52,369 bases of DNA from an uncultured Pseudomonadales bacterium (GCA_964437755.1 CAYTIA010000006.1:1-52369), one strand, 5' to 3'. Counted from the first letter of the stretch, positions 1 to 52,369 are shown. The notes: a model not told the origin generated them from the letters alone. Numbers and translations: made by a program.

Positions 1-200
1 TTGGACGATGCTTCTCCCCTTACCACTGAACCAACCACTCTTAATTTCACACCTTCAAAAAGTTTAGGATGTTTTTGCCTTAGTTTGGATTCGAAACGCT
101 CAAACCACAGCTTTCTTAAAGATGATTGATTTTCGGAATCTGAATCTGATGGTCGTAGTTTTCCCAATGGGTTTCTGTATTGTTCTTTCACTAAGCTCAT
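1..200 (-). CDS. Partial (runs off the window edge) nucleotidyltransferase-domain protein, Pol-beta/MNT-like
   Basis: Manual translation from ATG at 200: MSLVKEQYRNPLG...GVKLRVVGSVVRGEASS, open to the edge. The GSxxRG glycine-serine loop is typical of minimal nucleotidyltransferases; the DxD motif would lie outside the window. Confidence 0.5.
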   Translation of the reverse strand, partial: MSLVKEQYRNPLGKLRPSDSDSENQSSLRKLWFERFESKLRQKHPKLFEGVKLRVVGSVVRGEASS

Positions 201-245
201 TATTCAATAATAATTCTCAATTGACAACTTTTCTAAAAGGTATTA

Positions 246-271
246 AATATATGAATATGAATTCATATAAA
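246..271. promoter_or_regulatory. ArsR/SmtB-type operator (12-2-12 inverted repeat) overlapping the arsR start; TTGACA -35 box at 221-226
   Basis: Perfect inverted repeat TATATGAAT (248-256) / ATTCATATA (261-269) with the TGA...TCA core of SmtB/ArsR boxes, directly ahead of and over the ArsR-family gene start. Confidence 0.7.
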
Positions 272-571
272 TGTTGCACTCCGGGCTCACCTCAACTAAA
301 TAACATCACATCATTATCAAAATTATTAACCTTTATTGGCAAAGAAAGTAAGCTACAAATACTATGCCTACTTAAAGAGAATGAGCGTTGTGTTTGCGAG
401 TTGCTTGAATGTTGCAAGATGTCACAAAGTTTAATCTCTCATCATTTAGCTGACTTAAAAAAAGAGGGCTTGGTAGCAAATCGCAAAGAAGGTCGTAAAT
501 CTTTTTACTCTCTCACAAAAAAGGGGCAAGAGATTATCGTGAAAATTTTTTCAATTGATTTATTAATCTAA
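251..571 (+). CDS. arsR: ArsR/SmtB family metalloregulator (start probably ATG 251 or 257, not 122)
   Basis: KLQILCLL...ERCVCEL...SQSLISHHLADLK..GLV..RKEGR...YSL winged HTH; CVC motif as in R773 ArsR. Confidence 0.9.
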   Translation: MNMNSYKCCTPGSPQLNNITSLSKLLTFIGKESKLQILCLLKENERCVCELLECCKMSQSLISHHLADLKKEGLVANRKEGRKSFYSLTKKGQEIIVKIFSIDLLI

Positions 572-595
572 TAATAATTAGCAAAAAAACAAAAT

Positions 596-844
596 ATGAA
601 AATTCAAGTCTTAGGATCAGGTTGTCCAACCTGTCAATCACTTCATCAGTTAGTGCAAGATGTTGTAGTAGAACAATCATCTACTGCCGAAGTCGAGTAT
701 CTATCTGGAGCTGATGGTGTTCAAAAAATAATTGAGTTAGGGGTGATGGGCAGTCCGGTTTTAGTAATAAACGATAAAGTGGTTGCCACAGGAGTAATTT
801 CTAAAGAAAAAATCACCCAGTTAATTAATCAGGCTGAAAAGTAA
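596..844 (+). CDS. arsE: Small thioredoxin-like protein, MTH895/ArsE family
   Basis: MKIQVLGSGCPTC and GVMGSPVLVINDKVV..G motifs; 82 aa; second gene after arsR. Confidence 0.8.
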   Translation: MKIQVLGSGCPTCQSLHQLVQDVVVEQSSTAEVEYLSGADGVQKIIELGVMGSPVLVINDKVVATGVISKEKITQLINQAEK

Positions 845-846
845 AC

Positions 847-2010
847 ATGGATCAAACAATAAAACTTTTAAAAAAGAATTGGGCATTGCTCTTACTGTTT
901 TTTTCATACTTGGTCATTTTTCTATGGCAACAGCAAATTGGGGAACTTTTATCAAATACTGAGCTTAAGTTATTAATCGGCGACTCAATTTATCAAGGCT
1001 GGCTTGGACTAGTTGACTATTTGCAAGCCCATGTTTTGTTTTGTTTAATCCCAGCATTTTTTATTGCCGGTGCTGTAAATAGTTTAATCAGCTCTCAGAC
1101 AATCTTTAAATACTTTGGAGCTCAAAGTAAAAAATGGCTAGCTTACTCAATTGCCTCGGTAAGTGGCTTTTTAGTACAAGTTTGCTCCTGCACCATTTTG
1201 CCACTGTTTGCCGGAATTTGGAAAAAAGGCGCCGGTTTGGGAGTAGCCACTACATTTTTGTATGCTGGGCCGGCCGTCAATCTGTTGGCTTTAATCCTGA
1301 CGGGGCAAAGACTTGGTTGGGATTTTGCTATTTTTAGATTTGTAGTGTCAATTATTTTTGCCATCACCACTGGTTTAATTATGGAGCTTGTTTTTAAAGA
1401 CGAAAATCAAACAAAAGCAGAAAGTTTAGCAACTGTCGCAAATAACGAGATTTCAATAAATGGCAAAAAATCAAAGATCTTTTGGATAAACTTACTGGCT
1501 ATCTTGATAGTTGGCACCGCTCCCATTGAGTCTTCAATAAAAAGTACTGTTGTGTATTTACTCTCTGGTTTACAACTTATCCTTTCTTTCTCATGGCTTT
1601 CAAAAAATGATCGAGAAAACTGGTGGACAGAAACAACCAAATTCTTCAATCAAATTATCCCTTTATTGCTAGTAGGTGTATTTATTGCTTCATTCTTGAC
1701 TAATATGATTCCACAAGACAAATTTCAGGAGATTGCTGGTCAAAACACACTACTAACTAACTTTTTAGCAGTGCTATTTGGCGCTATCGCCTACTTTCCT
1801 GCTTTGGTTGAAGTGCCAATCGCCGAGAATTTCTTAAGATTGGGTATGAATAAAGGGCCACTTATGGCTTATCTGCTTTCTGATCCTGTTTTGTCATTGC
1901 AAGGACTGTTGATTATCCATAAACTAATTGGTACCAAAAAAACACTGGTTTATGCTTCAACAGTTGTAATATTAACTACCTTGGCCGGATTAATTTACGG
2001 AGGACTCTAA
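847..2010 (+). CDS. arsP: ArsP/DUF318 family permease
   Basis: HVLFCLIPAFFIAGA, VCSCTILPLF, FLYAGPAVN and YFPALVEVPI motifs; many hydrophobic segments; ars context. Confidence 0.85.
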   Translation: MDQTIKLLKKNWALLLLFFSYLVIFLWQQQIGELLSNTELKLLIGDSIYQGWLGLVDYLQAHVLFCLIPAFFIAGAVNSLISSQTIFKYFGAQSKKWLAYSIASVSGFLVQVCSCTILPLFAGIWKKGAGLGVATTFLYAGPAVNLLALILTGQRLGWDFAIFRFVVSIIFAITTGLIMELVFKDENQTKAESLATVANNEISINGKKSKIFWINLLAILIVGTAPIESSIKSTVVYLLSGLQLILSFSWLSKNDRENWWTETTKFFNQIIPLLLVGVFIASFLTNMIPQDKFQEIAGQNTLLTNFLAVLFGAIAYFPALVEVPIAENFLRLGMNKGPLMAYLLSDPVLSLQGLLIIHKLIGTKKTLVYASTVVILTTLAGLIYGGL

Positions 2011-2505
2011 ATGAAAAAATATTTGAGACCCTTAATTATATTACTAGCTATTGGAGGATTTATATTTTTTATTTCAAAATCCGACAACAAAAAACAAGTA
2101 TCAACTGCACAAGTTGCCACAGTGAATAGCGACGCTCCCACTTCAACAACTCCCTCAGAAACATTGGCTGTTAGCGATGCTGATCAAATAGTTATAGTTC
2201 ATTTTCACGGCACAGTACAATGCTGGTCTTGTATCGAGTTGGGGAAACTAGCTAAGGCGACTATTGAGGAAAGATTTCAGCCAGAATTAGCTGACAAAAA
2301 AATCATTTTTCAAGAAATCAACGGGGAGCTACCTGAAAACAAAGAAATAGTACAACTCTATCAAGCTAGAGGCTCATCACTATTTATCAACGCTATTAAA
2401 GACGATCAGAATCACATTCGTGAAGAAGTAAAAGCCTGGCAATTAATATCTCAAGAGGAAAAGTTTAAGGATTATCTTGAAAAAGAAATAAGAAAATTAT
2501 TGTAA
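2011..2505 (+). CDS. arsF: Membrane-anchored thioredoxin-fold protein, ArsF family
   Basis: N-terminal TM anchor, then VHFHGTVQCWSC (FHxxxxCxxC) motif; directly upstream of an ArsG-like gene. Confidence 0.75.
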   Translation: MKKYLRPLIILLAIGGFIFFISKSDNKKQVSTAQVATVNSDAPTSTTPSETLAVSDADQIVIVHFHGTVQCWSCIELGKLAKATIEERFQPELADKKIIFQEINGELPENKEIVQLYQARGSSLFINAIKDDQNHIREEVKAWQLISQEEKFKDYLEKEIRKLL

Positions 2506-2533
2506 ATTAAGGTTCGTCAAAAATAGGAGTCTC

Positions 2534-3262
2534 ATGGAATTAATCAATCAACTTTTAGAATCGACCACAGTTCCAATATTGGTGGCCTTCTTAATTGGAA
2601 TATTAACCTCAATTAGCCCCTGCCCACTGGCAACTAATATTAGTGCTGTGGCTTTTATCTCCAAAGAGATTTCTGATTCAAAAAGAGTACTTTTGAATGG
2701 TATCTATTATACTTTGGGAAGAATATTTACCTATACGTTATTAAGCTTTCTGATTAGTCTTGGTGTTTCCAGCTTTTCAATCGCTTCAATCTTTCAAAAA
2801 TGGGGAGATAAGGTTTTAGGCCCACTGTTAATTATCCTGGGCTTAATTATGCTCGATGTCATCAAAATACATCTAAAAACAGAAAACTCAAAAATTAATG
2901 ATCTCAAAAATCAATTATCGAAAAAAGGTTACTGGGGATCATTTGCTCTAGGAGCAATGTTTGCCTTAGCTTTTTGTCCTTACAGTGGAGTTTTGTTTTT
3001 TGGATTATTGATACCGTTAATAGCTTCTTCTGCTACCGCTCTAGTACTAGCACCAACTTTTGGCCTTGCCACCGGGCTTCCGGTAATTCTTTTCTCACTC
3101 GTATTAACCTTTGGTGTAAAACAGTTTGGGCAGATATTTAAGCTCACCCAAAAACTTGAGTTCTATGTTAGAAAAATCGTTGCGATAGTGTTACTATTAA
3201 CCGGCACTTATTATTTGAGATTTTTAATTATGATTATTTTCCGTCAGTTAACAACAAAATAA
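2534..3262 (+). CDS. arsG: CcdA-like membrane protein, ArsG family
   Basis: TSISPCPLATNISA and ALAFCPYSGVLFFG, the paired Cys-Pro motifs of CcdA/ArsG; SD AGGAG upstream. Confidence 0.8.
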   Translation: MELINQLLESTTVPILVAFLIGILTSISPCPLATNISAVAFISKEISDSKRVLLNGIYYTLGRIFTYTLLSFLISLGVSSFSIASIFQKWGDKVLGPLLIILGLIMLDVIKIHLKTENSKINDLKNQLSKKGYWGSFALGAMFALAFCPYSGVLFFGLLIPLIASSATALVLAPTFGLATGLPVILFSLVLTFGVKQFGQIFKLTQKLEFYVRKIVAIVLLLTGTYYLRFLIMIIFRQLTTK

Positions 3263-3337
3263 TCAAAAAAGGGTTTCAAGGGAAATTACCTTTGATGCGA
3301 CACTAACAAAATACTTACATTTTAAAATACAGTTTAT

Positions 3338-4027
3338 ATGTCAAATGAACTCTGTCAAAAGTCATCATACAGTAATAAATCTCTATTGTTTTTTTTAATT
3401 GCAATCGGAGTAATTGTTGGTAGTTTTTTTTGGACAAGAGGTTCGGCCAAAAGCATCGATCAAACAAACACTAATCTCATAACTTCGGCAAAACTTATCG
3501 TAGGCTATTGCCCTACAATGAAGGCTTATCTTCATCTTCTAGATCAACAAGCTTATGAATTTATTATGTTGCCATCATCGGCACTAGTGTTAGAACAGCT
3601 TAAATTAAATAAGATCGATCTAGCTTTGATTGGAAGAAAAGCAAAAACTCAGGAATTAAGTCATAATACTCAAGAGCAACTACTTATCGATGGTTATGTA
3701 CTAATAGGAATAGAAGATAAAACAATTGAAGCCGACCAGCTTTCTAATTACATTATTCATTCTTATCTACCAAGTAATGAGCTTGCTAACTTGTTCGCGA
3801 AAGAACAAACAATTGTTAAACATGATTATCTGCAATCTTCATTAAAGCAAATATCTACTCAAAATGATCTAGCAATACTTAAATGGTCAGAGTATGATGA
3901 ATCATTGTCACTGGTGACACCGGTTGTTGATCAGACAAAGGTTCTCTCATTTCGCTCTCCACATCTGTATTACTCAAAAGAGATCGCTAATGACATACAA
4001 CTAGCTAACAATCAAGATGAAATCTAA
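3338..4027 (+). CDS. Membrane-anchored hypothetical protein, possible periplasmic-binding-protein type 2 fold
   Basis: One N-terminal TM helix; LIVGYCPTM and LKLNKIDLALIGRK resemble PBP2/LysR-substrate-binding strands. Confidence 0.5.
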   Translation: MSNELCQKSSYSNKSLLFFLIAIGVIVGSFFWTRGSAKSIDQTNTNLITSAKLIVGYCPTMKAYLHLLDQQAYEFIMLPSSALVLEQLKLNKIDLALIGRKAKTQELSHNTQEQLLIDGYVLIGIEDKTIEADQLSNYIIHSYLPSNELANLFAKEQTIVKHDYLQSSLKQISTQNDLAILKWSEYDESLSLVTPVVDQTKVLSFRSPHLYYSKEIANDIQLANNQDEI

Positions 4028-4472
4028 ACAACAACAAATATTTACCATCGTTTTAATACTAATCATCACAGGACTAATGGGATACGTGATTATCAATCCA
4101 ACATCAAAAAAAAACAGCGTGGAACCAACACAAACCAGCCAAGTCACCTCCTCAACATCAGAAAGAGCTCCAGCTCTAACTGAATCAGGAATTATTATCT
4201 ACTACGGCATTACTTGCCCTTACTGCAAAGATGTTGATGAATGGATAGAAAAGAATAATGCTGAAAATTTTTTGGAGATCGCTCATAAAGAAGTGTATCA
4301 AAACAAAGATAACTCAAATGAGCTAATGCAAGTAGCAACCAGCTGTGGATTAAATATAAACAACGTAGGTGTACCCTTTATGCTAGCCAACGGTCAGTGT
4401 TACTCTGGAAAGCTTGAAATTATCGATTACCTACAACAACAGCTAGAGAAAGTAAAAAATGAAGAAAATTAA
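4017..4472 (+). CDS. Membrane-anchored glutaredoxin/thioredoxin-fold protein
   Basis: TM anchor, YYGITCPYC active site, VGVPF cis-Pro loop. Confidence 0.8.
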   Translation: MKSKQQQIFTIVLILIITGLMGYVIINPTSKKNSVEPTQTSQVTSSTSERAPALTESGIIIYYGITCPYCKDVDEWIEKNNAENFLEIAHKEVYQNKDNSNELMQVATSCGLNINNVGVPFMLANGQCYSGKLEIIDYLQQQLEKVKNEEN

Positions 4473-4977
4473 TCAACTTATTATTGCACTTGGTAGCATC
4501 TTTTCTTTGTCGATTTTATTTCCTGTACCTACACAAGCCGTCTGTCCCATTTGTACCTTTGCAGTCGGAGCCGGACTTGGCATTTCACGCTGGCTAGGGA
4601 TTGATGATGCAATTACCGGCTTATGGATTGGCGCTTTAGCCACTTCAAGTGGCATGTGGTTTGGAGACTGGCTAAAAAGTAAAAAGGTGGGTTCAAATAT
4701 CTTACTCACCATCAACTATTTTTCATTTCATATTTTACTTATTCCAACTTTATATCTGTTAAAGATAGCTGGAAATCCGTTTAATACTCTCTGGGGAGTT
4801 GATAAGATTATTCTTGGAATAATCTTTGGCTCAGTCGCTTTTTTCTTAAGTGTAGTCACCGACAGAACTATCAAAAAGAATAATAATGGAAAAGTGCTAG
4901 TTTATTACCAAAAAGTTATTCTTCCAATGTTTTACCTCTCAATCTTAAGTTTTATTTTTCACTTAATTACCAACTAA
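4459..4977 (+). CDS. Integral membrane protein with CxxC near the N-terminus
   Basis: Signal-like segment ending TQA, then VCPICTFAVGAGLG; about five hydrophobic helices; overlaps the upstream gene. Confidence 0.75.
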   Translation: MKKINQLIIALGSIFSLSILFPVPTQAVCPICTFAVGAGLGISRWLGIDDAITGLWIGALATSSGMWFGDWLKSKKVGSNILLTINYFSFHILLIPTLYLLKIAGNPFNTLWGVDKIILGIIFGSVAFFLSVVTDRTIKKNNNGKVLVYYQKVILPMFYLSILSFIFHLITN

Positions 4978-4989
4978 CAGATTATAAAA

Positions 4990-5565
4990 ATGGCAAAATC
5001 AAACAAAAACACCAGTAAAATCTCTGATCTTGAACTACAAAAATTCATGGATAAAGTTAAAGAAGCCGAGAAGGGTCACAAGCTCGATCTTTCATCTGAT
5101 GAAGACCTCTCGATCGGCATCATGAATCTTATCTCGATCGAGGAGCATTTTTTCTTCACCTATAACAAAACCAAAAACACACATTATTTAGATCTTCTCA
5201 ACGAAACCAGAGAAATGAGAAAAGATCTACTAAAAAGAATCATTAAGGACTATGAGGGAGAAGTCTGGTGTATCAGCAAACATTTATTAGCTGCCTCAAT
5301 GAGAATGATGGAGGTTGGCACCAAAGCTCTAACTAAAGGAGATAAAAAAGACGCTCAAGATTTTTTCAAAAAAGGTTATCAACTATATAGTCTTTTTTGG
5401 GGACTAAATTTAGGAGTAGTCAAAACAGAGAAACTCAAAGATAAAAAACCGGATGAGCTTGAGTATCTATCTGAAGATAATGAGCCACAAGTAAAAGCCA
5501 AGGCTAGTTTTTTTGAGAAGATGGGCGAGTTGGTAAAAAAAGCGGTGGACTGTTGTAAGGAGTAA
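4990..5565 (+). CDS. Soluble helical hypothetical protein with a C-terminal Cys-Cys
   Basis: 191-aa ORF in the same strand run; EEH, WCISKH and terminal DCCKE motifs. Confidence 0.75.
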   Translation: MAKSNKNTSKISDLELQKFMDKVKEAEKGHKLDLSSDEDLSIGIMNLISIEEHFFFTYNKTKNTHYLDLLNETREMRKDLLKRIIKDYEGEVWCISKHLLAASMRMMEVGTKALTKGDKKDAQDFFKKGYQLYSLFWGLNLGVVKTEKLKDKKPDELEYLSEDNEPQVKAKASFFEKMGELVKKAVDCCKE

Positions 5566-5605
5566 GCTTCTGTGGCTAAGTAATAAACATTCCGATAGTA
5601 AAGAT

Positions 5606-8600
5606 TTATTTAGCTTTTCTCATCAATCCTCCTGTAGATTTTTTATCCCCAACCCCCCTCATTAACATTGATCTATAACTATTCCTTATCATTACTCTTT
5701 CATCATCGGAAATTCCTCTTCCCTGAAGGTAAATTGACTCAAGAGCCTGCATCGCTGACCTCCCACCCTTTCTCTCAACCACATCAAGGGCTAAAGCTAA
5801 ATCAGGTATTGATCCAACATATCCACTATTTTCATGATCAGTAACCAAAGCAAGATAACTGTAAGCTAACTGGATAAAGGTATTTTCACCCCCACGATTC
5901 TCTATTTGAAGCAAAAGAAGTTTTTTTTGAGCTGGAGTTAGGTGAGTTGCTCTATAAAAAGTCAGTGGCAGCTCATCAATCACATCTGAAGGTAAATACT
6001 TTACAACAGCCATTACTCTTTCAAATTCACGATCAGAAAAACATCTTTCCCTAATAGAACCAAGGAGTGCTGATGAAATAACAGAATATCTATAAAGACG
6101 GAGCTCAATTATTTTATTCATTATTAATATTGTTTCAATTTCTGAAAAAATATTGCCACTTATCCCAGAAATTAAACGAGCAAAACAACTAGGCGCACTT
6201 TCAAGACCATTTAAATTATCCACGGAAAAAAGCTTAAGAAAAAGAACCAAGGGTATCTTTCTTAATAAGCCCTGTGAAAATAAAGTTGCTAATTCATAAA
6301 GATCATCATAATCAGCAACTTTTAAGTATTGAAGAAAAATTACTAAAGCTAATTCATTATTAATTGGAATCAAGTCTGATTTTCTCAAAAGAACGAAAAA
6401 TATGAGTCTGTCACCATTCAACAACAGAATATTAATCACTTCTTCTAGATATTCACTTGAATAATGTGAATCGTTAATTCTTTCAGCCAACAACAGAAGC
6501 GAATCTCTTGTACCGTAACGACTAATAAAAAATAAAACTTCTTCAGGAGGAACAATTGAGATACTGCCCTCAATAAATAAATCTGTTAAGTAATAACATT
6601 GTCGACTGTCTCCAACTATTTTGAAAATATTCCACAATCTTAGTTTAGTTTTATCATCAACTACATTAGTTGAGATAGCTGTCAAACATCTCGATGAAGT
6701 TTTTGCTCCACCATGCTCTTGAATAATTGAGTAAACGTTTTCCAAATCATGGGGATTAATTGCTTTTTTTTCTAGAGCAACGATTAATGCTGCTGAGCTC
6801 TCATCTCCAGCTATTAAAGCAACAGTCTCAAGAACTTCTTGCGAGCATCCTTTGTCAGATTGATTTTTAATTAATGATGCAGCAGCTTCATCATTACCAA
6901 TATCAGAAATAATGGAAAGTATTCGCGAAACTTCTTCATCAGTTTCTGATAATGAATCCAGATTTGAAGCTAGCATTTTAGCTATTCCTGAATTACCTCT
7001 TTTCCTAGCAAGTTTTAAAATCGTCGCTTTCCTAGATAAATATTGATGTTTGTTTTCAATTAGATTATTCAAAGCAAGAAGAGCTGTTTTTGGTCCCCCA
7101 ATTGTTAAAGCTATATCCAAAACTTCTTCTCGATCTACTTTCAATAACCTCATTTTTACTTCAGAAGTCTCTTCAGCCAGATCAAGCAATGCAAGCGCCG
7201 TTCTGTCTCCCCCAACTTTTCTAGCGATAGTTAAAACATCAACTGTTGAAACATTTTGATACTGACCCGTACACATATTTTCAACCAATGGGGCAGTAGC
7301 GTTATCATCTCCGTATTCACCTATACTTTCTACAAAAATAGCTATTTCCTCTCTTTCAACAGTTGGTTCACATAAATACGCAGCTAGCTTTATTGAAGCA
7401 GACGGAGATGAAGCAATCTTAAAAATTCTCCTTGCAATAATCCTGGCTTCCCCAGTGATCATTTTATCTACATAAGCACCCGCAAGTTTCATCAAAGTAT
7501 AAGTATCAGTCGATGTAAATTTTTTTCTAAGCTTATCATCATTAGCAATTTTGTTTTCTAAAAATGATAATATCAACTCTTGAACACTTTCGGGAAAAGG
7601 ATTACTGTTAAATAGCTTACTAACCAATCCTTTGATTGCTTCAATATGACCAATCTTACAAATTACACCTGCAATTGCTAATGAATCTTGGTTAGAAGGA
7701 CTTAACACTTCCAACAATATTGAAGCTGATTCATCACCTCCAATTTTTTCAATTATAGGTAATACTTCCAGCCCTACTCTCCTATCAACAAAGTCGCTTG
7801 CCAATACGTTTCCAGCTGTTTCTCCCCCAAATGTCTCAATTATCCATAAATATTTATCTTTTTCTTCATCTGTATCCTTAAATTGTTTTGAGGATAATTC
7901 AATTGCCAACTGCGTTGTTAGTTGTCCTCTCACAACTTTTGCTTCAAATAGCTTGGACTCTGGAAAAGAGTTTGATATTGATTCAAGAATTTCATCCATT
8001 CCCACATTAGAAAACATATCTGAAACCTCAAGCATATTAAATGAAGATAGAGAAATTGGATTATCTAACACCATTAAAGCAGCTAAGCGCCCCTCTGGCG
8101 TATCAGTTTCACAAATTAAATATCCAAATACTAATTGCTGCCAAGAAAGAGGTGCTTCTGGATGAGTTAAAAGTAATTTCCTGTGTTCCTTTTGGCTGAG
8201 ATGATAATAGAGAGTAATCAAATTTGAAATGTTAATTGGATCAAGTCTTTGAAACCGATCCATACGAGGTATTGTTAAGCCCCTTACTTCCCACGTATAG
8301 ACACGTACAGCTGACCTGATCGGAGTTTGATTATTTACAACAACCTCTATTCCAGGAAGCTCGGGAGCTTTTTTATGGTCTCCTTGATCTAAATGAATGT
8401 GCAAACCTTCAGGACTAGCTCTGTCAAAAAACATAGCTAAATTACCCAATTGAGCAACATAATCAACTCCATATATTAAATCATCATCTAGTTTTCTCAA
8501 TTCAAGAGTATCGCCCATATCCCTGCCTGCCATAAAACCAGGACAGTCAGTTTTTCTAGATTCATCTCCATACTCAATTTCTAGACCAACCTTTCTTGGT

Positions 8601-9760
8601 TTAATCTCTAACCATGATTCCGCAATTACTAATCCTTGAACTGAGTCAGCCAATTCTTGATATTTATCATAAAGCTCTTGCTCTGATACAGAAATTTCAG
8701 CCAAAAGCTTGTTTCTTCTTGACTCCTGTAACTGAATCCATGCTGAATCCTTACCCTTTGATTTAGCTAGTTGAGCTGATAACTGTAAAGCTAGTGGTCT
8801 TCGCAAATCTCCAAATCTATCCATAATCTTCAACGTTTCTTCACACTGATCATCAGATAATTCAGAGTACATTAAAATACCATATAGAAAATTTCTTGTT
8901 TTAATGGAGTTCTTTCTGGATTGAAGGAGGTTGATAATCTGCTCATGTAACCCCCTTATCTCTGGATATCTATAACCAACATCTATTTCTTCTTCTAGAT
9001 TTTTTTTGTACCATCTCTCTCTATAAAAACTTAAAATTTCTGTATAACCAATTAATAAACTCTGCACTGCATCTTCATTAGAAAAAACAGTTGGTTGACC
9101 TATAAGTTCATGAACATCAGTCCAGATCCTCTCCATTAAGCATAGAGGGCGTTCATATATTTCCAAATCTTGATCAAAAAACGTGTGTAGGATTTTTCTC
9201 TGTTTTGAAGGTCTCGCTTCTTCCCAACTTAACTCTTCAATATTACCCTCTATTTCATGTTTTTTTTGAAAATAAAAAAGTAAAAACCTTGCTGGAGCAT
9301 GAATTAACCTAACAATATCTGAAGGAGTTAATTCTGCCATTCTCTCACCCTCTTCAATTCTTAAATCTGGAGGAATCAGCGTTTTATCTGAATCTTCAGA
9401 CTTCCTTTCTGCAATCTTTCTTTGATAAAAAGCATTTGGATTTGTAAGAAGCTCTCTTTGTTCAGCTAAGTTTAACCCTAGAGTAAAATCATTATTAATT
9501 TCTGGATGAGCATCTGATAAAGGAACAACAATAGTTTTTTCTGGCTTTTCGACTACCACGAATCCTGCTTGATGCATTACCGCAGCCATCCCTGCAAATT
9601 GTTTTGGTACATCTAACTTTGGAGAAACAACTACAGTAGCTTCTTCTTCTCTAATTGGAGGTTTTCCATCTGCCGACCACAAATTGCCACCAAATTCACG
9701 AGCTATTTGCTCAGTTACAACTCCTTCTCTTATTGCTCGCTCAAGTCTTTGATCACTCAT
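5606..9760 (-). CDS. 1384-aa protein: amidoligase/COOH-NH2-ligase-like domain plus HEAT-like repeat solenoid
   Basis: GLEIE, TLELR, GLHIH and WEVRG motifs at about aa 389-495; recurring G-[GDN]-x-x-[AT] helix pairs about every 31-34 aa from about aa 650 to the C-terminus. Confidence 0.7.
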   Translation of the reverse strand: MSDQRLERAIREGVVTEQIAREFGGNLWSADGKPPIREEEATVVVSPKLDVPKQFAGMAAVMHQAGFVVVEKPEKTIVVPLSDAHPEINNDFTLGLNLAEQRELLTNPNAFYQRKIAERKSEDSDKTLIPPDLRIEEGERMAELTPSDIVRLIHAPARFLLFYFQKKHEIEGNIEELSWEEARPSKQRKILHTFFDQDLEIYERPLCLMERIWTDVHELIGQPTVFSNEDAVQSLLIGYTEILSFYRERWYKKNLEEEIDVGYRYPEIRGLHEQIINLLQSRKNSIKTRNFLYGILMYSELSDDQCEETLKIMDRFGDLRRPLALQLSAQLAKSKGKDSAWIQLQESRRNKLLAEISVSEQELYDKYQELADSVQGLVIAESWLEIKPRKVGLEIEYGDESRKTDCPGFMAGRDMGDTLELRKLDDDLIYGVDYVAQLGNLAMFFDRASPEGLHIHLDQGDHKKAPELPGIEVVVNNQTPIRSAVRVYTWEVRGLTIPRMDRFQRLDPINISNLITLYYHLSQKEHRKLLLTHPEAPLSWQQLVFGYLICETDTPEGRLAALMVLDNPISLSSFNMLEVSDMFSNVGMDEILESISNSFPESKLFEAKVVRGQLTTQLAIELSSKQFKDTDEEKDKYLWIIETFGGETAGNVLASDFVDRRVGLEVLPIIEKIGGDESASILLEVLSPSNQDSLAIAGVICKIGHIEAIKGLVSKLFNSNPFPESVQELILSFLENKIANDDKLRKKFTSTDTYTLMKLAGAYVDKMITGEARIIARRIFKIASSPSASIKLAAYLCEPTVEREEIAIFVESIGEYGDDNATAPLVENMCTGQYQNVSTVDVLTIARKVGGDRTALALLDLAEETSEVKMRLLKVDREEVLDIALTIGGPKTALLALNNLIENKHQYLSRKATILKLARKRGNSGIAKMLASNLDSLSETDEEVSRILSIISDIGNDEAAASLIKNQSDKGCSQEVLETVALIAGDESSAALIVALEKKAINPHDLENVYSIIQEHGGAKTSSRCLTAISTNVVDDKTKLRLWNIFKIVGDSRQCYYLTDLFIEGSISIVPPEEVLFFISRYGTRDSLLLLAERINDSHYSSEYLEEVINILLLNGDRLIFFVLLRKSDLIPINNELALVIFLQYLKVADYDDLYELATLFSQGLLRKIPLVLFLKLFSVDNLNGLESAPSCFARLISGISGNIFSEIETILIMNKIIELRLYRYSVISSALLGSIRERCFSDREFERVMAVVKYLPSDVIDELPLTFYRATHLTPAQKKLLLLQIENRGGENTFIQLAYSYLALVTDHENSGYVGSIPDLALALDVVERKGGRSAMQALESIYLQGRGISDDERVMIRNSYRSMLMRGVGDKKSTGGLMRKAK

Positions 9761-9768
9761 TTTCTTGA

Positions 9769-10461
9769 CTAATACCTTTCCTCAAATAACTTTATTTCAC
9801 CATTTTCAATTAATAAATATGAAGCATAACCATACATAATACAGCCAGAATTGGCATAGTGATTTTGATTGTCAATCTCAGCATAATGGGTATCAGCTCC
9901 AATTAACCACTTCTGGTTTTTTCTACTTAGCACTGCTTCCTTCATGAGCTCATTACTCTTTTTTGCAAAAGAAGATTTCTTCATTATTCCTGGAATAACT
10001 AGATATCCTATTTTTTCTAACAAATTCATTAATTTTCTTAAAAAGATAACAATCATTAGAGATTCTTGAGATAGCAATAACTCTCGAAATTTGCTTTCTA
10101 ACATCCCTCTTTTATTAATCAATAATTCGTACCCGTGGATAATTTCAAGTTCCTTGTTTCCCAAGTTAATTTGACACATTTTTCCAAAACCTTTACAAAA
10201 AAGTTTAGCTCTATCATCAATCATATTTAAACTATCATGATTTCCTAGCACATAGAATGTATTTTTTTCTTTTAAGAGTTTGAAAAGTTTTGACCATTTC
10301 GAGGTAAGAAATTGGTCAAATGTACAAAACCAGCTATCCCAGAAATCTCCATTAATAATTACTCTGTCTGCTCGAGCAATAATTGAATGTAAATACTGAT
10401 ACTTTTTTTGATCAAATTTATGAGTCAGATGGGTATCAGAAAATACTAAAATTCTCATCAT
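9769..10461 (-). CDS. Calcineurin-like metallophosphoesterase
   Basis: SDTH, NGDFWD, GNHD, IIHG, DTH and NSG motifs. Confidence 0.85.
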   Translation of the reverse strand: MMRILVFSDTHLTHKFDQKKYQYLHSIIARADRVIINGDFWDSWFCTFDQFLTSKWSKLFKLLKEKNTFYVLGNHDSLNMIDDRAKLFCKGFGKMCQINLGNKELEIIHGYELLINKRGMLESKFRELLLSQESLMIVIFLRKLMNLLEKIGYLVIPGIMKKSSFAKKSNELMKEAVLSRKNQKWLIGADTHYAEIDNQNHYANSGCIMYGYASYLLIENGEIKLFEERY

Positions 10462-10544
10462 TAATTAATTCTAAACTATTTCATTATCAAATAATTAGTG
10501 ATATTGTATATCTAGTAAACCAATACTCTCTAGCTTCGCTAATA

Positions 10545-11819
10545 ATGACGGAGTTATATCCCCCAAACATAAAAGAAATTCGCAAGAATCAGTTTATTTT
10601 CAAGGAAATTCCACTAAACAATGGATATTATGCTGTAATACTGTTACCCGATTCTGATCCGGGTAAATTATCAATCCCACAACTAACTAATTTTAATTTT
10701 CCTACAGTATCCGGATCTCTAGAAACAACCTTAATTCTAGGTCCAAAAGAAACAAGTAAAGCTAAAATTACCGGTGATTTTGTGGTTTTGGTTGTAATTA
10801 TGAATAAACAACATCAAGCAATAGCAGCAATTCCAGTTGTCCAGGATGGTTTGTCATCAGGAGAATCTGAAGCATATCAGCAAATATTTAAAAGTGTTCT
10901 TCATTCAGCTTGGGATATAAATTTAAGACCTTTTTTTGTTAAAAATCCGCAATTAACCGATTTTTTCTATTCACTTGATGCAGACTCACTCGCTTCAGCC
11001 ATTGCTAGAGACTTCTGGACAAATAATGGCAATTTATTACAAACAATCCTAAATGGTTATCTTGATTCTCTTGAATTAATCGGCAATAAGTGCGATCCTG
11101 ACAAAGTAATAAAAACTATTACTCAACTGCAGTCACAAATCGTTTATGCAAGAGCAATGCATTCAAGACAAATCTTGTCTGCTTTTCATAAATATGAACA
11201 GTGGAAACCAATCTGGGGTGATGCAATTATGGCTTTTTCAGTAATGCATTTTGCACGATCTTTGCAAGAAGAAAATCTTCGCCTAACCAGCTGTCATAGC
11301 GCAAGACCTACCGCTGATTGTTTTCAAGCCATTGAAACAAATATTTCAGGGCAAGGTTTGGTTAGTAATGCACTCACCGTTGACACAAATGCACGCCTTG
11401 AACAATTATTCTTAGATTTGCTTGAGCAGGGATTATTTGAAGATCCAGAAAAAGCACGAAGGTTTTATTTAGAGCATTTATATAGTTATAAACCAGGCGG
11501 TTTTTACGCAACAGTAGCTAACCCTGTTCCAAACATGAATATTGGATCTCATCAAATATTAGCCTTATATCAAAAATATGACCTTGAAGTATTATCATTA
11601 TCAAAAACACCAGGGGGTGACTGGCTAAAGAGTGTTAGCATTTCAGATGGAGCCACATTTGTCACTAGAGACCTAAAAAGAAAAGCTGCAACAGAAGAGT
11701 TAATCATAAAAAGAACAGACGAAGCCCATCAATCCCCCGAAGGTTTTATAAATCAAATACTTGCAGGTGGTGCAAGCGATGATTATTCACTCATAGAGGC
11801 AACTAGCATTCATTTGTAA
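10545..11819 (+). CDS. Hypothetical protein; C-terminal half weakly class I methyltransferase-like
   Basis: Long ORF; ATG 10545 avoids overlap with the divergent phosphoesterase; TVD and YKPGG segments. Confidence 0.55.
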   Translation: MTELYPPNIKEIRKNQFIFKEIPLNNGYYAVILLPDSDPGKLSIPQLTNFNFPTVSGSLETTLILGPKETSKAKITGDFVVLVVIMNKQHQAIAAIPVVQDGLSSGESEAYQQIFKSVLHSAWDINLRPFFVKNPQLTDFFYSLDADSLASAIARDFWTNNGNLLQTILNGYLDSLELIGNKCDPDKVIKTITQLQSQIVYARAMHSRQILSAFHKYEQWKPIWGDAIMAFSVMHFARSLQEENLRLTSCHSARPTADCFQAIETNISGQGLVSNALTVDTNARLEQLFLDLLEQGLFEDPEKARRFYLEHLYSYKPGGFYATVANPVPNMNIGSHQILALYQKYDLEVLSLSKTPGGDWLKSVSISDGATFVTRDLKRKAATEELIIKRTDEAHQSPEGFINQILAGGASDDYSLIEATSIHL

Positions 11820-11831
11820 ATTATCTCAAAA

Positions 11832-11861
11832 AAATAGCCAAGAATTTCTCCTTGGCTATTT
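11832..11861. terminator. Intrinsic terminator between convergent genes
   Basis: AAATAGCCAAG / CTTGGCTATTT 11-bp stem with an 8-nt loop and A/T-rich flanks. Confidence 0.7.
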
Positions 11862-11887
11862 AAAAATCTCTATTCGCAACAAAAAGG

Positions 11888-12376
11888 CTACATCTTGGTC
11901 ATCATGTCATCCATGACTGCCTCAAGATCATCTTCATGCTCCACCTCGTCAGTCAGAATTTCCTTTACCATGCGCTCAGTAACCAAATCTTTTCCTTGTA
12001 CAAAATCAAGTAACTCAGAATAAAATCTAATTGCGCAACGCTCTCCTTCAATATTCTGCTCCACCAATTTTTTTGTATTTGGATCAGCTGGAGTTAAATA
12101 ACCACAACCTGATTTTTCATACCAATCTTTTGGTTCAAGAATTGGTTCTCCACCCAATTGAATAATTCTTGTAGCAACCATGTCAGCATGCCTGAGTTCA
12201 TCGGTAGCATGCTCAAGCAGTTCTATTACCACTTCAGGTCGCATTAAACCAACCGCCACCTTAGCACCCACCCAATACTGATAATATGCCAGCCATTCAT
12301 CAGCATAAGCCTCAGTAAGTTTTTCAATCAACTTATCTTTATCTACTTTAATAATTTGGGTTCCTATTTTTCCCAT
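11888..12376 (-). CDS. dpsL: DPS-like ferritin-family protein (DpsL/thioferritin)
   Basis: DEWLAYYQYW, DELRHA, EGERCAI and DEVEHE diiron ligands; two Cys (SGC, ERC) match the thioferritin pair. Confidence 0.8.
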   Translation of the reverse strand: MGKIGTQIIKVDKDKLIEKLTEAYADEWLAYYQYWVGAKVAVGLMRPEVVIELLEHATDELRHADMVATRIIQLGGEPILEPKDWYEKSGCGYLTPADPNTKKLVEQNIEGERCAIRFYSELLDFVQGKDLVTERMVKEILTDEVEHEDDLEAVMDDMMTKM

Positions 12377-12418
12377 TTTTTCCTTTCACTTAATACTTAA
12401 TACTTTATTACCAATATT

Positions 12419-13189
12419 TTAGACTGCCGTCCATCCACCATCAACATAGATTGTTTGACCGGTAATAAAACTTGATGCATCTGAAGCAAGCAGGATTAAG
12501 GCACCATTTAATTCACCTTCCTTGCCCCAGCGATGCATTGGATTACTACCAACAATGAAAGCATTGGCTTCTTGATTATCTTTAATAGACATTGTCATCT
12601 CACTCTCAAAAAAACCAGGGCCAATGGCGTTAACCGTAATATTATTTTTTGCCCACTCAGCAGCCAAAGCTCGCGTTAGATTAACTACAGCACCTTTGGT
12701 TGCATGATAGGCTACAACAGGAAAAGCTAGATTAGCGCTATGTCCAAAGATTGAAGCGATATTAATAATTTTTCCATAATTTTGCTCAATCATTAATTTG
12801 CCAAACTGCTGAGCAGTAACGAATACTCCCGTTAAGTTCACATCAACAACCTTTTGCCATTCCTCAAGGGTCATTTCAGTAGCCTCACCAATACCACCAA
12901 CACCTGCATTATTAACCAAAATATCCACTCCCCCTAGTTCTGCCTTGACCATCTCAACAGCATTTTTAACTTGCTCAAGATTTGCCACATCACACTCAAT
13001 CGAAATTACCTTATTTGAAAACTCGTTCTCTATTTGCTCCTTAACTTGCTCCAATTTTTCTTTTCTCCTAGCCAACAAAGCAATATCAGCACCATATTCA
13101 GCTAAAGCTTTCGCCATCTGTACACCCAGGCCACTTGAGGCCCCAGTTACAACCGCTCTTTTTCCTGATAAATCAAATAGTTTCGACAT
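12419..13189 (-). CDS. Short-chain dehydrogenase/reductase (gluconate 5-dehydrogenase-like)
   Basis: TGASSGLG, NNAG, YHATK, PGFF and DGG motifs. Confidence 0.9.
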   Translation of the reverse strand: MSKLFDLSGKRAVVTGASSGLGVQMAKALAEYGADIALLARRKEKLEQVKEQIENEFSNKVISIECDVANLEQVKNAVEMVKAELGGVDILVNNAGVGGIGEATEMTLEEWQKVVDVNLTGVFVTAQQFGKLMIEQNYGKIINIASIFGHSANLAFPVVAYHATKGAVVNLTRALAAEWAKNNITVNAIGPGFFESEMTMSIKDNQEANAFIVGSNPMHRWGKEGELNGALILLASDASSFITGQTIYVDGGWTAV

Positions 13190-52284: not shown

Positions 52285-52369
52285 CGGAAGGGGTGGGACT
52301 CGAACCCACGAAGCCCGTGAGGGCGCCGGTTTTCGAAACCGGTGCAATAGACCGCTATGCGACCCTTCC
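52285..52369 (-). tRNA. tRNA-Ser (anticodon CGA)
   Basis: Acceptor stem GGAAGGG/CCCTTCC, anticodon arm CCGGT-TTCGAAA-ACCGG, long variable arm, GGTTCGAGTCC T arm, G discriminator; CCA not encoded. Confidence 0.95.

What the first reader, a model, noticed from the sequence alone, without database searches (positions are those of the whole stretch)
3338..5565. Four-gene Cys-motif extension of the ars operon: candidate undescribed trans-envelope redox or metalloid module
After arsG, four more same-strand genes overlap or nearly touch, and I see no terminator before 5565. Each carries a Cys motif: YCPT, CPYC, CPIC, and WCxxKH plus a terminal CC. With arsR-G, all nine consecutive genes carry Cys motifs. 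The predicted topology (outside PBP-like protein, outside glutaredoxin, integral CxxC membrane protein, inside helical protein) suggests a second relay parallel to ArsE/F/G, or an As(III) capture and hand-off chain. I do not recognise these four as named ars genes. This is my best candidate for a new system in the window.
Basis: partly seen in the sequence, partly recalled or inferred. Interest (0 to 1): 0.72.

Follow-up and report, generated by a model that had tools for sequence, protein, structure and literature searches.

The report
Conserved cysteine envelope cassette behind ars-like operon
Three of the four genes form an undescribed, cysteine-based envelope cassette found across hundreds of ultra-small (Patescibacteria) bacterial species, repeatedly placed under an ArsR-type metal(loid) sensor, and the fourth is a separate single-cysteine binding-protein-like accessory that is also arsenic-linked.

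Summary
Four same-strand ORFs (3338-5565) follow arsR-arsE-arsP-arsF-arsG, they overlap or nearly touch, and each carries the stated Cys motif.

They are two things, not one.
- ORF7-ORF8-ORF9 (4017-5565) is a conserved three-gene cassette. In 79 species-level genome loci, ORF9 follows ORF8 in 76 and ORF7 precedes it in about 60. All the Cys residues are 97-100% conserved.
- ORF6 (3338-4027) is a rarer, PBP-like, outward-facing protein with one invariant Cys. Elsewhere its relatives sit beside ArsR/Acr3.

What each protein looks like:
- ORF7 is an outward-facing glutaredoxin-fold protein.
- ORF8 is a membrane protein with an outer-face CPxC. It has no family and no solved structural relative.
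- ORF9 is a very conserved cytoplasmic helical protein with Cys94/His98 and a terminal Cys-Cys. It has no family.

Links to the ars-like genes:
- 24 of 76 cassettes lie behind ArsR/ArsE/ArsP/ArsF/ArsG. Others lie behind a P1B-ATPase/DsbB/HMA-DsbD_2 set.
- Natural ArsF-ORF7 and ORF7-ORF8 fusions exist.
- An ArsR-type operator palindrome sits in a promoter directly in front of the cassette in minimal loci.

Best reading (confidence 0.5): an ArsR-controlled, Scs-like envelope thiol module for thiophilic metal(loid) stress. The direction of redox or metal transfer is unresolved. Neither arsenic specificity nor a Cys relay through ORF8 is shown. I rate it a new variant of a known kind.

The parts
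221..269 (+). Candidate promoter and operator at the head of the nine-gene cluster. It holds TTGACA (221-226) and a perfect palindrome TATATGAAT-N4-ATTCATATA (248-269) that overlaps the likely arsR start codon.
   Evidence: The core block, from the -35 region through the palindrome, is identical in the syntenic locus L006. It is the only copy in the window. The same palindrome lies at the arsR start in 13 other loci, and in front of ORF7 in L015, L036 and L076.
251..571 (+). ArsR/SmtB-family regulator with an N-terminal CC and an alpha-3 CVC...CC. The longest ORF starts at 122, but homologs start at MNMNSYKCC, which is position 251.
   Evidence: HTH_5 E = 1e-15 and NF033788 at 79 bits. Alignment of 24 neighbouring ArsRs.
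596..844 (+). Small cytoplasmic thioredoxin-like protein (CPTC) of the MTH895/ArsE family.
   Evidence: Thioredoxin_3 E = 1e-18; TIGR00412 at 64.7 bits against a cut-off of 62.
847..2010 (+). ArsP_1-family permease carrying a CSC motif.
   Evidence: PF03773 E = 1e-71. The SO_0444 Cu/Zn efflux and SaoE models hit below their cut-offs.
2011..2505 (+). Membrane-anchored, outward-facing ArsF-family thioredoxin-like protein (CWSC).
   Evidence: NF040494 at 94 bits against a cut-off of 60.
2534..3262 (+). ArsG / DsbD_2 (CcdA-like) membrane protein with two invariant Cys-Pro motifs (C30, C148).
   Evidence: NF040495 at 278 bits against a cut-off of 200; PF13386. Cys invariance in 13 homologs.
3263..3337 (+). 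arsG-ORF6 spacer. It has no terminator-like site and no operator copy, and it is 83% identical to the same spacer in L006.
3338..4027 (+). ORF6: an N-terminally anchored, outward-facing protein, weakly like type-2 periplasmic binding proteins, with an invariant Cys in GYCPTM. It is an accessory gene, not part of the core cassette.
   Evidence: Contexts with ArsR/Acr3/ArsP.
4017..4472 (+). ORF7: a membrane-anchored, outward-facing glutaredoxin-fold protein. Its active site is CPYC (CPHC in 47 of 65 homologs), and it has a second conserved Cys pair, C110/C128.
   Evidence: The family profile hits small glutaredoxins in the PDB (7c10, E = 6e-9).
4459..4977 (+). ORF8: a signal/anchor helix followed by a 4-TM membrane protein. 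An invariant AVCPxC sits at the N-cap of a short outer-face helix, followed by GAGLGxSRWLGIDD.
   Evidence: AF2 model with pLDDT 88. No PDB fold match. Topology.
4990..5565 (+). ORF9: a cytoplasmic helical protein with no signal peptide. It has 39 invariant positions, including E51 E52 H53, E91 W93 C94 K97 H98, and the C-terminal C188 C189.
   Evidence: AF2 gives a helical bundle at low confidence. No family, no PDB sequence match and no fold match.
5574..5615 (.). Weak AU-rich hairpin followed by UUUUCUC, lying between the convergent ORF9 and the 1384-aa ORF. It is a possible end of the transcription unit.
   Evidence: -11 kcal/mol, z = -0.4, not significant.

Best explanation
ORF7-ORF8-ORF9 is a conserved envelope thiol cassette of Patescibacteria. 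In this window it is the distal part of an operon controlled by an ArsR-type regulator.

Proposed working:
1. ORF7 is an outward-facing glutaredoxin-fold protein with a DsbA/ScsC-like CP(H/Y)C. ORF8 is a membrane protein of new fold whose CPxC sits on the outer face. The two contact each other directly and exchange either a disulfide or a thiol-bound metal(loid) outside the cell.
2. They work alongside the ArsE -> ArsG (CcdA-like) -> ArsF branch, which supplies reducing power or carries the same ligand.
3. ORF9 sits on the cytoplasmic side of ORF8. It uses Cys94/His98 and its flexible terminal Cys-Cys to bind the metal(loid) or to shuttle electrons.
4. The whole set is de-repressed when the Cys-rich ArsR senses a thiophilic metal(loid). 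It then keeps envelope thiols functional while ArsP, or a P1B ATPase in other lineages, exports the toxicant. This is the logic of the Scs copper-stress system.
5. ORF6 is a separately acquired accessory: an outward-facing, PBP-like protein that binds through its single invariant Cys.

Shown here: the gene order and its conservation, Cys invariance, the ORF7 fold class, the outward position of ORF8's CPxC, the natural fusions, the linkage to ArsR/ArsEPFG and to ATPase/DsbD_2 sets, and operator palindromes in front of the cassette.

Inferred: direct thiol or metal exchange, the ligand, the direction of transfer, the role of ORF9, and co-transcription in this window.
For: Cassette conservation:
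- ORF9 lies directly after ORF8 in 76 of 79 loci (median gap 10 nt). ORF7 lies directly before it in about 60 (median gap -4 nt).
- Cys residues are 97-100% conserved.

Linkage:
- The only recurrent neighbours are ArsR (21 loci), ArsP (17), ArsG (13) and ArsE (11). All are upstream on the same strand. Nothing else exceeds 10 of 79.
- 24 of 76 cassettes are ars-linked, spread over both deep clades and 11 of 40 subclusters.
- Gene orders include ArsR-E-P-F-G-[6]-7-8-9, ArsR-E-P-7-8-9, ArsR-7-8-9, and ArsR-E-(ArsF::ORF7)-8-9-G-P with the cassette embedded in the cluster.
- Natural fusions exist: ArsF::ORF7 in L041 and L060, and ORF7::ORF8 in L062.
- A second context is HMA protein - P1B ATPase - DsbB - HMA::DsbD_2 - 7-8-9 - ArsR.

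Regulation:
- The palindrome TATGAAY-N4-RTTCATA lies at the arsR start in the window and in 13 other loci.
- It also lies between a TTGAAA -35 element and a CATAAT -10 element directly in front of ORF7 in L015 and L036 (sequence read). A copy also sits at the ORF7 start in L076.
- 17 of the 28 sites found in 1.02 Mb fall within 40 nt of an arsR or ORF7 start.

Proteins:
- The ORF7 family profile matches glutaredoxins at E = 6e-9. CPHC is the commonest active site.
- The ORF8 model has pLDDT 88, with CPxC at a helix N-cap. The K/R-rich loops are inside and the acidic GIDD is outside.
- The neighbouring ArsRs keep the N-terminal CC and the alpha-3 CVC.

Precedent: the Scs system has a DsbD-like ScsB, a CPYC Cu(I)-binding ScsC, a tethered ScsD and an unexplained CxxC membrane protein ScsA, and it is induced by copper (PMC10907172).
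Against: - 52 of 76 cassettes have no ars-like marker within about 6-8 kb. Some MAGs carry a stand-alone ORF8-ORF9 pair beside an ars-embedded copy. The core job may therefore be housekeeping.
- There is no experimental or transcript evidence.
- ORF9 has no modelled role that follows from structure. Its AF2 model is poor (pLDDT 61.5).
- Homology to the Scs, Dsb or Mer membrane components is absent.
- In several minimal loci the ArsR has lost the CVC motif (L032, L036, L062, L078).
- The 'ars' names of the upstream genes rest on family models, not on any test in these organisms.
Confidence: 0.5

Rival explanations
1. A Mer-like directional hand-off chain for a thiophilic metal(loid). ORF7 (outside, CxxC) passes it to ORF8 (outer-face CPxC and a channel), which passes it to ORF9 (cytoplasmic Cys3/His acceptor). 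The chain could also run in reverse as an export brigade. The Cys residues act as ligands rather than redox centres.
For: - The layout matches MerP, MerT and the C-terminal Cys-Cys of MerA (established knowledge of the mer system).
- ORF9 has three invariant Cys plus a His, including a terminal vicinal pair.
- Neighbours are metal(loid) exporters, HMA domains and an HMA::DsbD_2 fusion.
- The adjacent ArsR sensors are Cys-rich.
- The ORF6 family lies next to Acr3.
Against: - ORF8 has no conserved Cys, His or Met on the cytoplasmic side or within the membrane to pass a metal through.
- No detoxifying enzyme such as MerA is linked, so import would be harmful.
- CPHC in a glutaredoxin fold, and the fusion to ArsF, point to redox chemistry.
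- No similarity to the MerT/MerC/MerP families was found.
Confidence: 0.2
2. A housekeeping oxidative protein-folding system of Patescibacteria. ORF7 is the DsbA-equivalent oxidase and ORF8 a new kind of membrane re-oxidiser (a DsbB/VKOR analogue). ORF9 is needed for its assembly or as an electron sink. Linkage to ars-like genes reflects only shared envelope-redox housekeeping.
For: - CPHC is the DsbA motif.
- ORF7 itself carries a probable structural disulfide, C110/C128.
- ORF8 has 4 TM helices with an outer-face CxxC at a helix N-cap, as in DsbB and VKOR.
- An ORF7::ORF8 fusion mirrors the known VKOR-Trx fusions.
- The cassette is very widespread and mostly stands alone.
Against: - ORF8 lacks the second Cys pair of DsbB/VKOR, has no conserved His and no cofactor signature, and has no sequence or fold similarity to either.
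- A true DsbB gene sits in the same cluster in L106, L107 and L110.
- Operator palindromes of an ArsR-type repressor lie in the cassette's own promoter in L015 and L036, with a copy also at the ORF7 start in L076. That argues for stress control rather than housekeeping.
Confidence: 0.15
3. One reading: a second reductant-export relay parallel to ArsE/G/F. ORF9, through its terminal Cys-Cys tail, reduces ORF8's CPxC from a cytoplasm-facing cavity. ORF8 then reduces ORF7 outside.
For: - The three locations match Trx / CcdA / ResA.
- A mobile terminal Cys-Cys is a known redox shuttle in some thioredoxin reductases (established knowledge).
- In L055, ORF8 sits between ArsF and ArsG.
Against: - Both ends of the CPxC helix are outside. 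ORF8 has a single Cys pair and no similarity to CcdA/DsbD (hhalign probability 0.2%).
- The oxidising CPHC motif is unexpected for a terminal reductase.
- The operon already encodes a complete ArsE/ArsG/ArsF set.
Confidence: 0.1
4. The four genes are merely adjacent to the ars-like genes and are functionally unrelated to them.
For: Most cassettes in the wide sample have no ars-like neighbour. A 75-nt spacer separates arsG from ORF6.
Against: - Linkage recurs on the same strand in many lineages.
- The cassette is embedded between arsF and arsG in L041, L055 and L060.
- ArsF::ORF7 fusions exist, and the cassette promoter shares the operator palindrome.
Confidence: 0.05

Closest known systems
Scs (suppressor of copper sensitivity) system, ScsABCD of Salmonella and relatives
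   Same: It is a metal-induced operon combining a DsbD-like membrane reductase (ScsB, compare ArsG or HMA-DsbD_2), a soluble or tethered Trx-fold protein with CPYC that also binds Cu(I) (ScsC, compare ORF7), a membrane-tethered Trx-like protein (ScsD, compare ArsF), and an unexplained membrane protein with a CxxC and no structural relative (ScsA, compare ORF8) (PMC10907172).
   Different: - ORF8 and ORF9 have no detectable homology to anything in Scs.
- The regulator is ArsR-type, not CpxRA.
- Scs has no counterpart of the cytoplasmic ORF9.
- The organisms are Patescibacteria without a periplasm of the Gram-negative kind.
- The stressor is unknown.
DsbA/DsbB (or VKOR) oxidative folding pair
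   Same: An outward-facing Trx-fold protein with CPHC pairs with a 4-TM membrane partner that has an outer-face CxxC at a helix N-terminus. Natural fusion of the two is also seen in VKOR-Trx proteins.
   Different: - ORF7 is a minimal glutaredoxin fold without the DsbA helical insert.
- ORF8 lacks the second Cys pair, any quinone-site signature, and any sequence or fold similarity.
- A genuine DsbB co-occurs in some clusters.
Thioredoxin -> CcdA/DsbD -> extracytoplasmic Trx-like protein relay, named here ArsE/ArsG/ArsF after Shewanella ArsEFG (Chen, Zhang and Rosen 2019, known to me only through the reference list of PMC9144182)
   Same: The upstream genes of the same operon are members by NCBIfam thresholds. 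ORF7 is fused to ArsF in two lineages. The layout has one protein inside, one in the membrane and one outside.
   Different: ORF8 has one Cys pair, on one face only, and no similarity to DsbD_2. ORF9 is not a thioredoxin fold.
Mer transport chain: MerP, MerT, and the C-terminal Cys-Cys of MerA
   Same: Paired cysteines outside, at the membrane and on a flexible C-terminal Cys-Cys inside. Some mer operons use ArsR-family regulators (from my own knowledge).
   Different: There is no homology, no cytoplasmic Cys pair in the membrane protein, and no reductase.
Type-2 periplasmic binding proteins (for ORF6 only). AioX-type As(III)-binding proteins are the functional comparison.
   Same: An outward-facing lipoprotein or anchored protein with weak profile similarity to PBP_like_2 and amino-acid-binding proteins. 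It has recurrent ars-gene neighbours.
   Different: The similarity is marginal (best E = 1e-4 to 5e-3). The domain is short, about 180 residues. No ABC transporter or sensor kinase partner is present. A single invariant Cys lies in GYCPTM.

Membership tests
Glutaredoxin / thioredoxin fold (ORF7) | CxxC at the strand-1/helix-1 junction, a cis-Pro loop, and significant profile similarity to members of the fold | tested here: met
   CxxC is kept in 100% of 65 homologs, and GVP(F) is conserved. The family profile hits glutaredoxin 7c10 at E = 6e-9. The single sequence is below the Pfam gathering score (15.6 against 22.9 bits).
DsbA family (ORF7) | Trx fold with an inserted helical domain, a CPHC-type site, and a Pfam DSBA match | tested here: not met
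   CPHC is present in 47 of 65 homologs. However, the mature domain is only about 95 residues, leaving no room for the helical insert. PF01323 scores E = 0.045, below its cut-off.
DsbB / VKOR (ORF8) | Four-TM bundle with two extracytoplasmic Cys pairs and a quinone site, plus family or fold similarity | tested here: not met
   Only one Cys pair is conserved. There is no Pfam or NCBIfam hit. The best Foldseek match to the PDB has E = 1.6 and TM <= 0.33, despite a model pLDDT of 88.
CcdA / DsbD_2 (ORF8) | Two Cys in separate pseudo-symmetric TM halves (PC motifs), plus profile similarity | tested here: not met
   hhalign of the ORF8 profile against the ArsG profile gives probability 0.2%. The Cys residues are adjacent, as CPxC.
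MerT/MerC/MerF mercury transporters (ORF8) | Family profile match, with Cys pairs both in TM1 and on the cytoplasmic side | tested here: not met
   No Pfam hit at E <= 0.1. No conserved cytoplasmic Cys.
Scs system | Homology to ScsA/B/C/D, and copper induction | tested here: not met
   ORF8 and ORF9 show no homology in any library. The resemblance lies in architecture only. Induction cannot be tested here.
ArsEFG cluster (upstream genes 596-844, 2011-2505, 2534-3262) | NCBIfam models above their curated cut-offs | tested here: met
   ArsE family 64.7 against 62; ArsF 94.1 against 60; ArsG 277.9 against 200. Activity on aromatic arsenicals cannot be tested here.
Named ars genes (ORF6-ORF9) | A match to any curated ars family model | tested here: not met
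   No NCBIfam or Pfam ars-family hit for ORF6, ORF8 or ORF9. ORF7 has only weak glutaredoxin hits.
Type-2 periplasmic binding protein (ORF6) | Significant profile or structural similarity to the PBP fold, and an export signal | tested here: inconclusive
   PBP_like_2 is hit by 8 of 40 family members, best E = 0.005. The PDB protein AncQR scores E = 1e-4 over 54 residues. An anchor or lipobox is present.
ArsR/SmtB repressor-operator unit controlling the cassette | An inverted-repeat operator in the promoter of the regulated genes, and a Cys-based sensing site | tested here: met
   The palindrome lies at the arsR start in the window and 13 other loci. It lies inside a -35/-10 promoter in front of ORF7 in L015 and L036, and at the ORF7 start in L076. 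CC plus CVC are kept in most of these ArsRs. Binding and the inducer cannot be tested here.

The most novel reading that the evidence does not exclude
ORF8 and ORF9 are the core of a new class of membrane thiol machinery specific to ultra-small symbiotic prokaryotes (Patescibacteria, with copies in genomes labelled DPANN and TM6). ORF8 would be a membrane protein of new fold whose outer-face CPxC is serviced from the cytoplasm by a dedicated Cys-His/Cys-Cys protein, without quinones or a CcdA-type carrier. The pair would move either electrons or a thiophilic metal(loid) across the membrane by a mechanism not yet described.
Probability: 0.3. Interest if true: 0.8.

Novelty: new variant of a known kind. 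Interest (0 to 1): 0.62.

Why it matters
Patescibacteria have tiny genomes and keep few accessory functions. Even so, this cassette turns up in at least 493 species-level genomes. ORF9 has more than 8000 sequence clusters and is about 70% identical across classes. Neither ORF8 nor ORF9 has a family name, and ORF8 has a confidently predicted fold with no solved relative.

The data give a testable handle on the function. There is an ArsR-type operator in the cassette's own promoter, there are natural fusions to ArsF, and the cassette has fixed partners (a DsbD_2 protein plus a metal(loid) exporter).

If the proposal is right, it would show how organisms without respiratory quinones keep surface cysteines working under metal(loid) stress. 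It would also add a new membrane component to the Dsb/Scs/Mer repertoire.

One caution follows for annotation. The 'ars' labels in these lineages may stand for a broader thiophilic-metal/thiol stress operon.

Tried and rejected
- Pfam, NCBIfam and PADLOC scans of ORF6, ORF8 and ORF9 gave nothing. Lenient Pfam scans of all members of the ORF9 alignment gave only scattered noise.
- PDB sequence searches with profiles of ORF8, ORF9 (two alignments) and ORF6 found nothing for ORF8. For ORF9 the only hit was a designed coiled coil. For ORF6 the hits were marginal PBP matches.
- The AF2 model of ORF9 was of low confidence (pLDDT 61.5). Foldseek returned only generic four-helix bundles at E >= 0.25, so I draw no conclusion from it.
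- The ORF8 model was good but Foldseek found no relative.
- hhalign of ORF8 against ArsG showed no relation.
- ORF7 against ArsF showed similarity at the active site only.
- I suspected that the 780-aa genes upstream of ArsR in L015, L036 and L076 were heavy-metal ATPases. They lack DKTGT and CPC motifs, so I rejected this. 'Cluster 10' mixes Cu-type and other P-type ATPases.
- The Thioredoxin_4 hit in one ORF6-family member (P0390) is partial and marginal.
- The search for related loci failed with the diverse ORF6 alignment. The narrower alignment gave 12 loci.
- No RNA-seq run holds the region, so co-transcription remains untested.
- The operator palindrome was not found in the arsG-ORF6 spacer.


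Full report
**Observation.** The window carries nine consecutive + strand ORFs from about 251 to 5565.
- The first five pass curated family thresholds: ArsR/SmtB regulator, MTH895/ArsE-family thioredoxin-like protein, ArsP_1 permease, ArsF-family protein and ArsG/DsbD_2 protein.
- The four ORFs of the finding lie at 3338-4027, 4017-4472, 4459-4977 and 4990-5565. They overlap by 11 and 14 nt, then leave a 12-nt gap. They carry GYCPT, CPYC, CPIC, and WCISKH plus a terminal CC, exactly as described.
- No terminator-like site lies in the spacers. The 75-nt arsG-ORF6 spacer folds only weakly.
- The DNA comes from sludge metagenomes, and no RNA data set holds it.

**The four genes are two entities.**
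- ORF8 belongs to a large family. The indexed search found 724 hits. The genome scan found 493 loci in species-representative genomes, nearly all labelled Patescibacteria (Microgenomates, WWE3, Parcubacteria groups), with a few labelled TM6 or Aenigmatarchaeota.
- I searched six-frame ORFs of 80 of these loci with the nine window proteins. An ORF9 homolog lies directly downstream of ORF8 in 76 of 79 usable loci. An ORF7 homolog lies directly upstream in about 60. Median gaps are 10 and -4 nt.
- ORF6 is different. It has only 7 close hits. It appears in front of the cassette only in the window's own lineage (L006) and in L015, L025, L037 and L108/L109.

**The proteins.**
- *ORF7.* It has an N-terminal membrane anchor and a domain of about 95 residues. 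The family profile matches small glutaredoxins (7c10, E = 6e-9). CxxC is invariant, as CPHC in 47 of 65 homologs and CPYC in 7. A second pair, C110/C128, is 98% conserved and is probably a structural disulfide.
- *ORF8.* It has an invariant AVCPxC...GAGLGxSRWLGIDD block. AlphaFold2 gives a confident model (pLDDT 88, pTM 0.78): a signal/anchor helix, a short helix 30-45 capped by the CPxC, and four long helices. Two lines of evidence place the CPxC on the outer face. First, the K/R-rich loops 75-82 and 141-152 and the acidic GIDD follow the positive-inside rule. Second, a natural ORF7::ORF8 fusion in L062 has two membrane passes between the domains. The model has no relative in the PDB (best E = 1.6). 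There is no profile similarity to ArsG/DsbD_2.
- *ORF9.* It has no signal peptide and more than 8000 homolog clusters at 68-94% identity among the best hits. It has 39 invariant positions across both deep clades, including E51 E52 H53, E91 W93 C94 K97 H98, and C188 C189 at the very C-terminus. It has no family, no PDB sequence relative, and only a low-confidence helical-bundle model.
- *ORF6.* It belongs to a family of 288 representative clusters of proteins about 200 residues long. C58 in GYCPTM is invariant, alongside the GR.A..E and FR.P.LY motifs. Distant members carry lipoprotein signals. Similarity to type-2 binding proteins is weak.

**Linkage.**
- Clustering all neighbours of the cassette shows only one recurrent set: ArsR (21 loci), ArsP (17), ArsG (13) and ArsE (11). 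All lie upstream on the same strand. No other gene family exceeds 10 of 79 loci.
- 24 of 76 cassettes have at least one marker and 17 have two or more. They are spread over both deep clades and 11 of 40 subclusters.
- Gene orders include the window's full arrangement, ArsR-E-P-7-8-9, the minimal ArsR-7-8-9, and ArsR-E-(ArsF::ORF7)-8-9-G-P, where the cassette sits inside the cluster.
- The ArsF::ORF7 proteins of L041 and L060 are true two-domain fusions.
- Five further look-ups started from ORF9 homologs chosen only for contig length. All five showed the cassette behind either ArsR-Trx_3-ArsP_1(-ArsF-DsbD_2) or an HMA protein - P1B ATPase - DsbB - HMA::DsbD_2 set with an ArsR nearby. The latter set also occurs in L051 and L038.
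- Some MAGs hold two copies, one ars-embedded and one stand-alone ORF8-ORF9 pair.
- ORF6-family genes outside the cassette lie next to ArsR/Acr3, ArsP or an ArsR-F-G-E-P cluster in about 7 of roughly 9 independent loci.

**Regulation.**
- At the head of the window's cluster, a TTGACA box (221-226) is followed by a perfect palindrome TATATGAAT-N4-ATTCATATA (248-269) that overlaps the likely arsR start. The core block, from the -35 region through the palindrome, is identical in L006. It is the only copy in the window.
- The same palindrome, with at most 2 mismatches, lies at the arsR start in 13 other loci.
- In the minimal loci L015 and L036 a second copy lies between a TTGAAA -35 element and a CATAAT -10 element immediately upstream of the real ORF7 start codon. 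A copy also sits at the ORF7 start in L076.
- 17 of the 28 sites in 1.02 Mb fall within 40 nt of an arsR or ORF7 start.
- This is cis evidence that an ArsR-type repressor controls the cassette. Most of these ArsRs keep an N-terminal CC and the alpha-3 CVC typical of thiolate metal(loid) sites.

**Interpretation.**
- The facts fit an ArsR-controlled envelope thiol module that accompanies a thiophilic metal(loid) exporter and a DsbD_2 protein.
- The closest known logic is the copper-induced Scs system. It has a DsbD-like ScsB, a CPYC Cu(I)-binding ScsC, a tethered ScsD and an unexplained CxxC membrane protein ScsA (PMC10907172).
- I propose that ORF7 and ORF8 exchange a disulfide or a thiol-bound metal(loid) on the outer face. 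ORF9 would serve ORF8 from the cytoplasm with its Cys94/His98 site and terminal Cys-Cys. ORF6 would be an optional outward-facing Cys-based binder.
- The direction of transfer, the ligand, and whether anything crosses the membrane through ORF8 are all inferred.
- Rival readings cannot be excluded. What speaks against each is listed under the rival explanations.
- Arsenic specificity is not shown. The ArsE/F/G names come from family models based on Shewanella ArsEFG (Chen, Zhang and Rosen 2019, seen only as a citation in PMC9144182).

**Verdict.** Two of the three cassette proteins are undescribed families, one with a confidently predicted fold that has no solved relative. The system-level logic resembles known thiol-based envelope systems, so I rate it a new variant of a known kind. 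Interest is 0.62.

Noticed in passing
window 5606-9760 (- strand): A 1384-aa ORF convergent with ORF9. It has no Pfam family and only a non-significant PADLOC hit. It is conserved and syntenic in L006 (1385 aa).
   Followed up: partly
window 122-571: The longest arsR ORF is probably about 43 codons too long. Homologs start at MNMNSYKCC (ATG at 251).
   Followed up: partly
window 3263-3337 compared with L006 9911-10000: The arsG-ORF6 spacer is 83% identical between the two lineages, although the ORF6 protein is only 61% identical. No operator copy or convincing promoter was found there, and the conservation is unexplained.
   Followed up: partly
L106 1-6926, L107, L110 1-5546: A cluster of HMA protein - P1B ATPase - DsbB - HMA::DsbD_2 fusion - ORF7-8-9. 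In L106 and L107 it continues with ArsR - DUF302::glutaredoxin - YgaP-like TM protein. The HMA::DsbD_2 fusion suggests that some DsbD_2 proteins in these organisms handle metals rather than, or as well as, electrons.
   Followed up: partly
L041 and L087 (same contig CAZCMV010000001.1); L033 and L060 (same MAG): Two copies occur per genome: an ars-embedded cassette with an ArsF::ORF7 fusion, and a stand-alone ORF8-ORF9 pair without ORF7.
   Followed up: no
L101 3466-6609; L097 514-4384: ORF6-family genes outside Patescibacteria cassettes follow DUF4910 + SufE + a 4Fe-4S protein and precede Acr3/ArsR (L101). In L097 they follow a pyridine-nucleotide disulfide oxidoreductase + GcvH and precede a glutaredoxin-like ORF7 homolog.
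   Followed up: partly
L063 7215-7592 and 4 other loci: A small 4Fe-4S dicluster protein lies between arsG and ORF7 in five loci. A DUF134 DNA-binding protein lies in the same position in L061.
   Followed up: no
L078, L084, L043: Cassette copies occur in genomes labelled Aenigmatarchaeota (DPANN) and TM6. This could be transfer between ultra-small symbionts or mis-binning. Many loci labelled 'uncultured Pseudomonadales/Gammaproteobacteria' look like mislabelled Patescibacteria.
   Followed up: no
window 52285-52369 (- strand): A tRNA gene at the very end of the window (Rfam RF00005, 53.9 bits).
   Followed up: no
window 9769-13189: The downstream neighbours are a calcineurin-like phosphoesterase, a 478-aa ORF without a family, a ferritin/rubrerythrin-like protein and a short-chain dehydrogenase. 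The order is the same as in L006.
   Followed up: no
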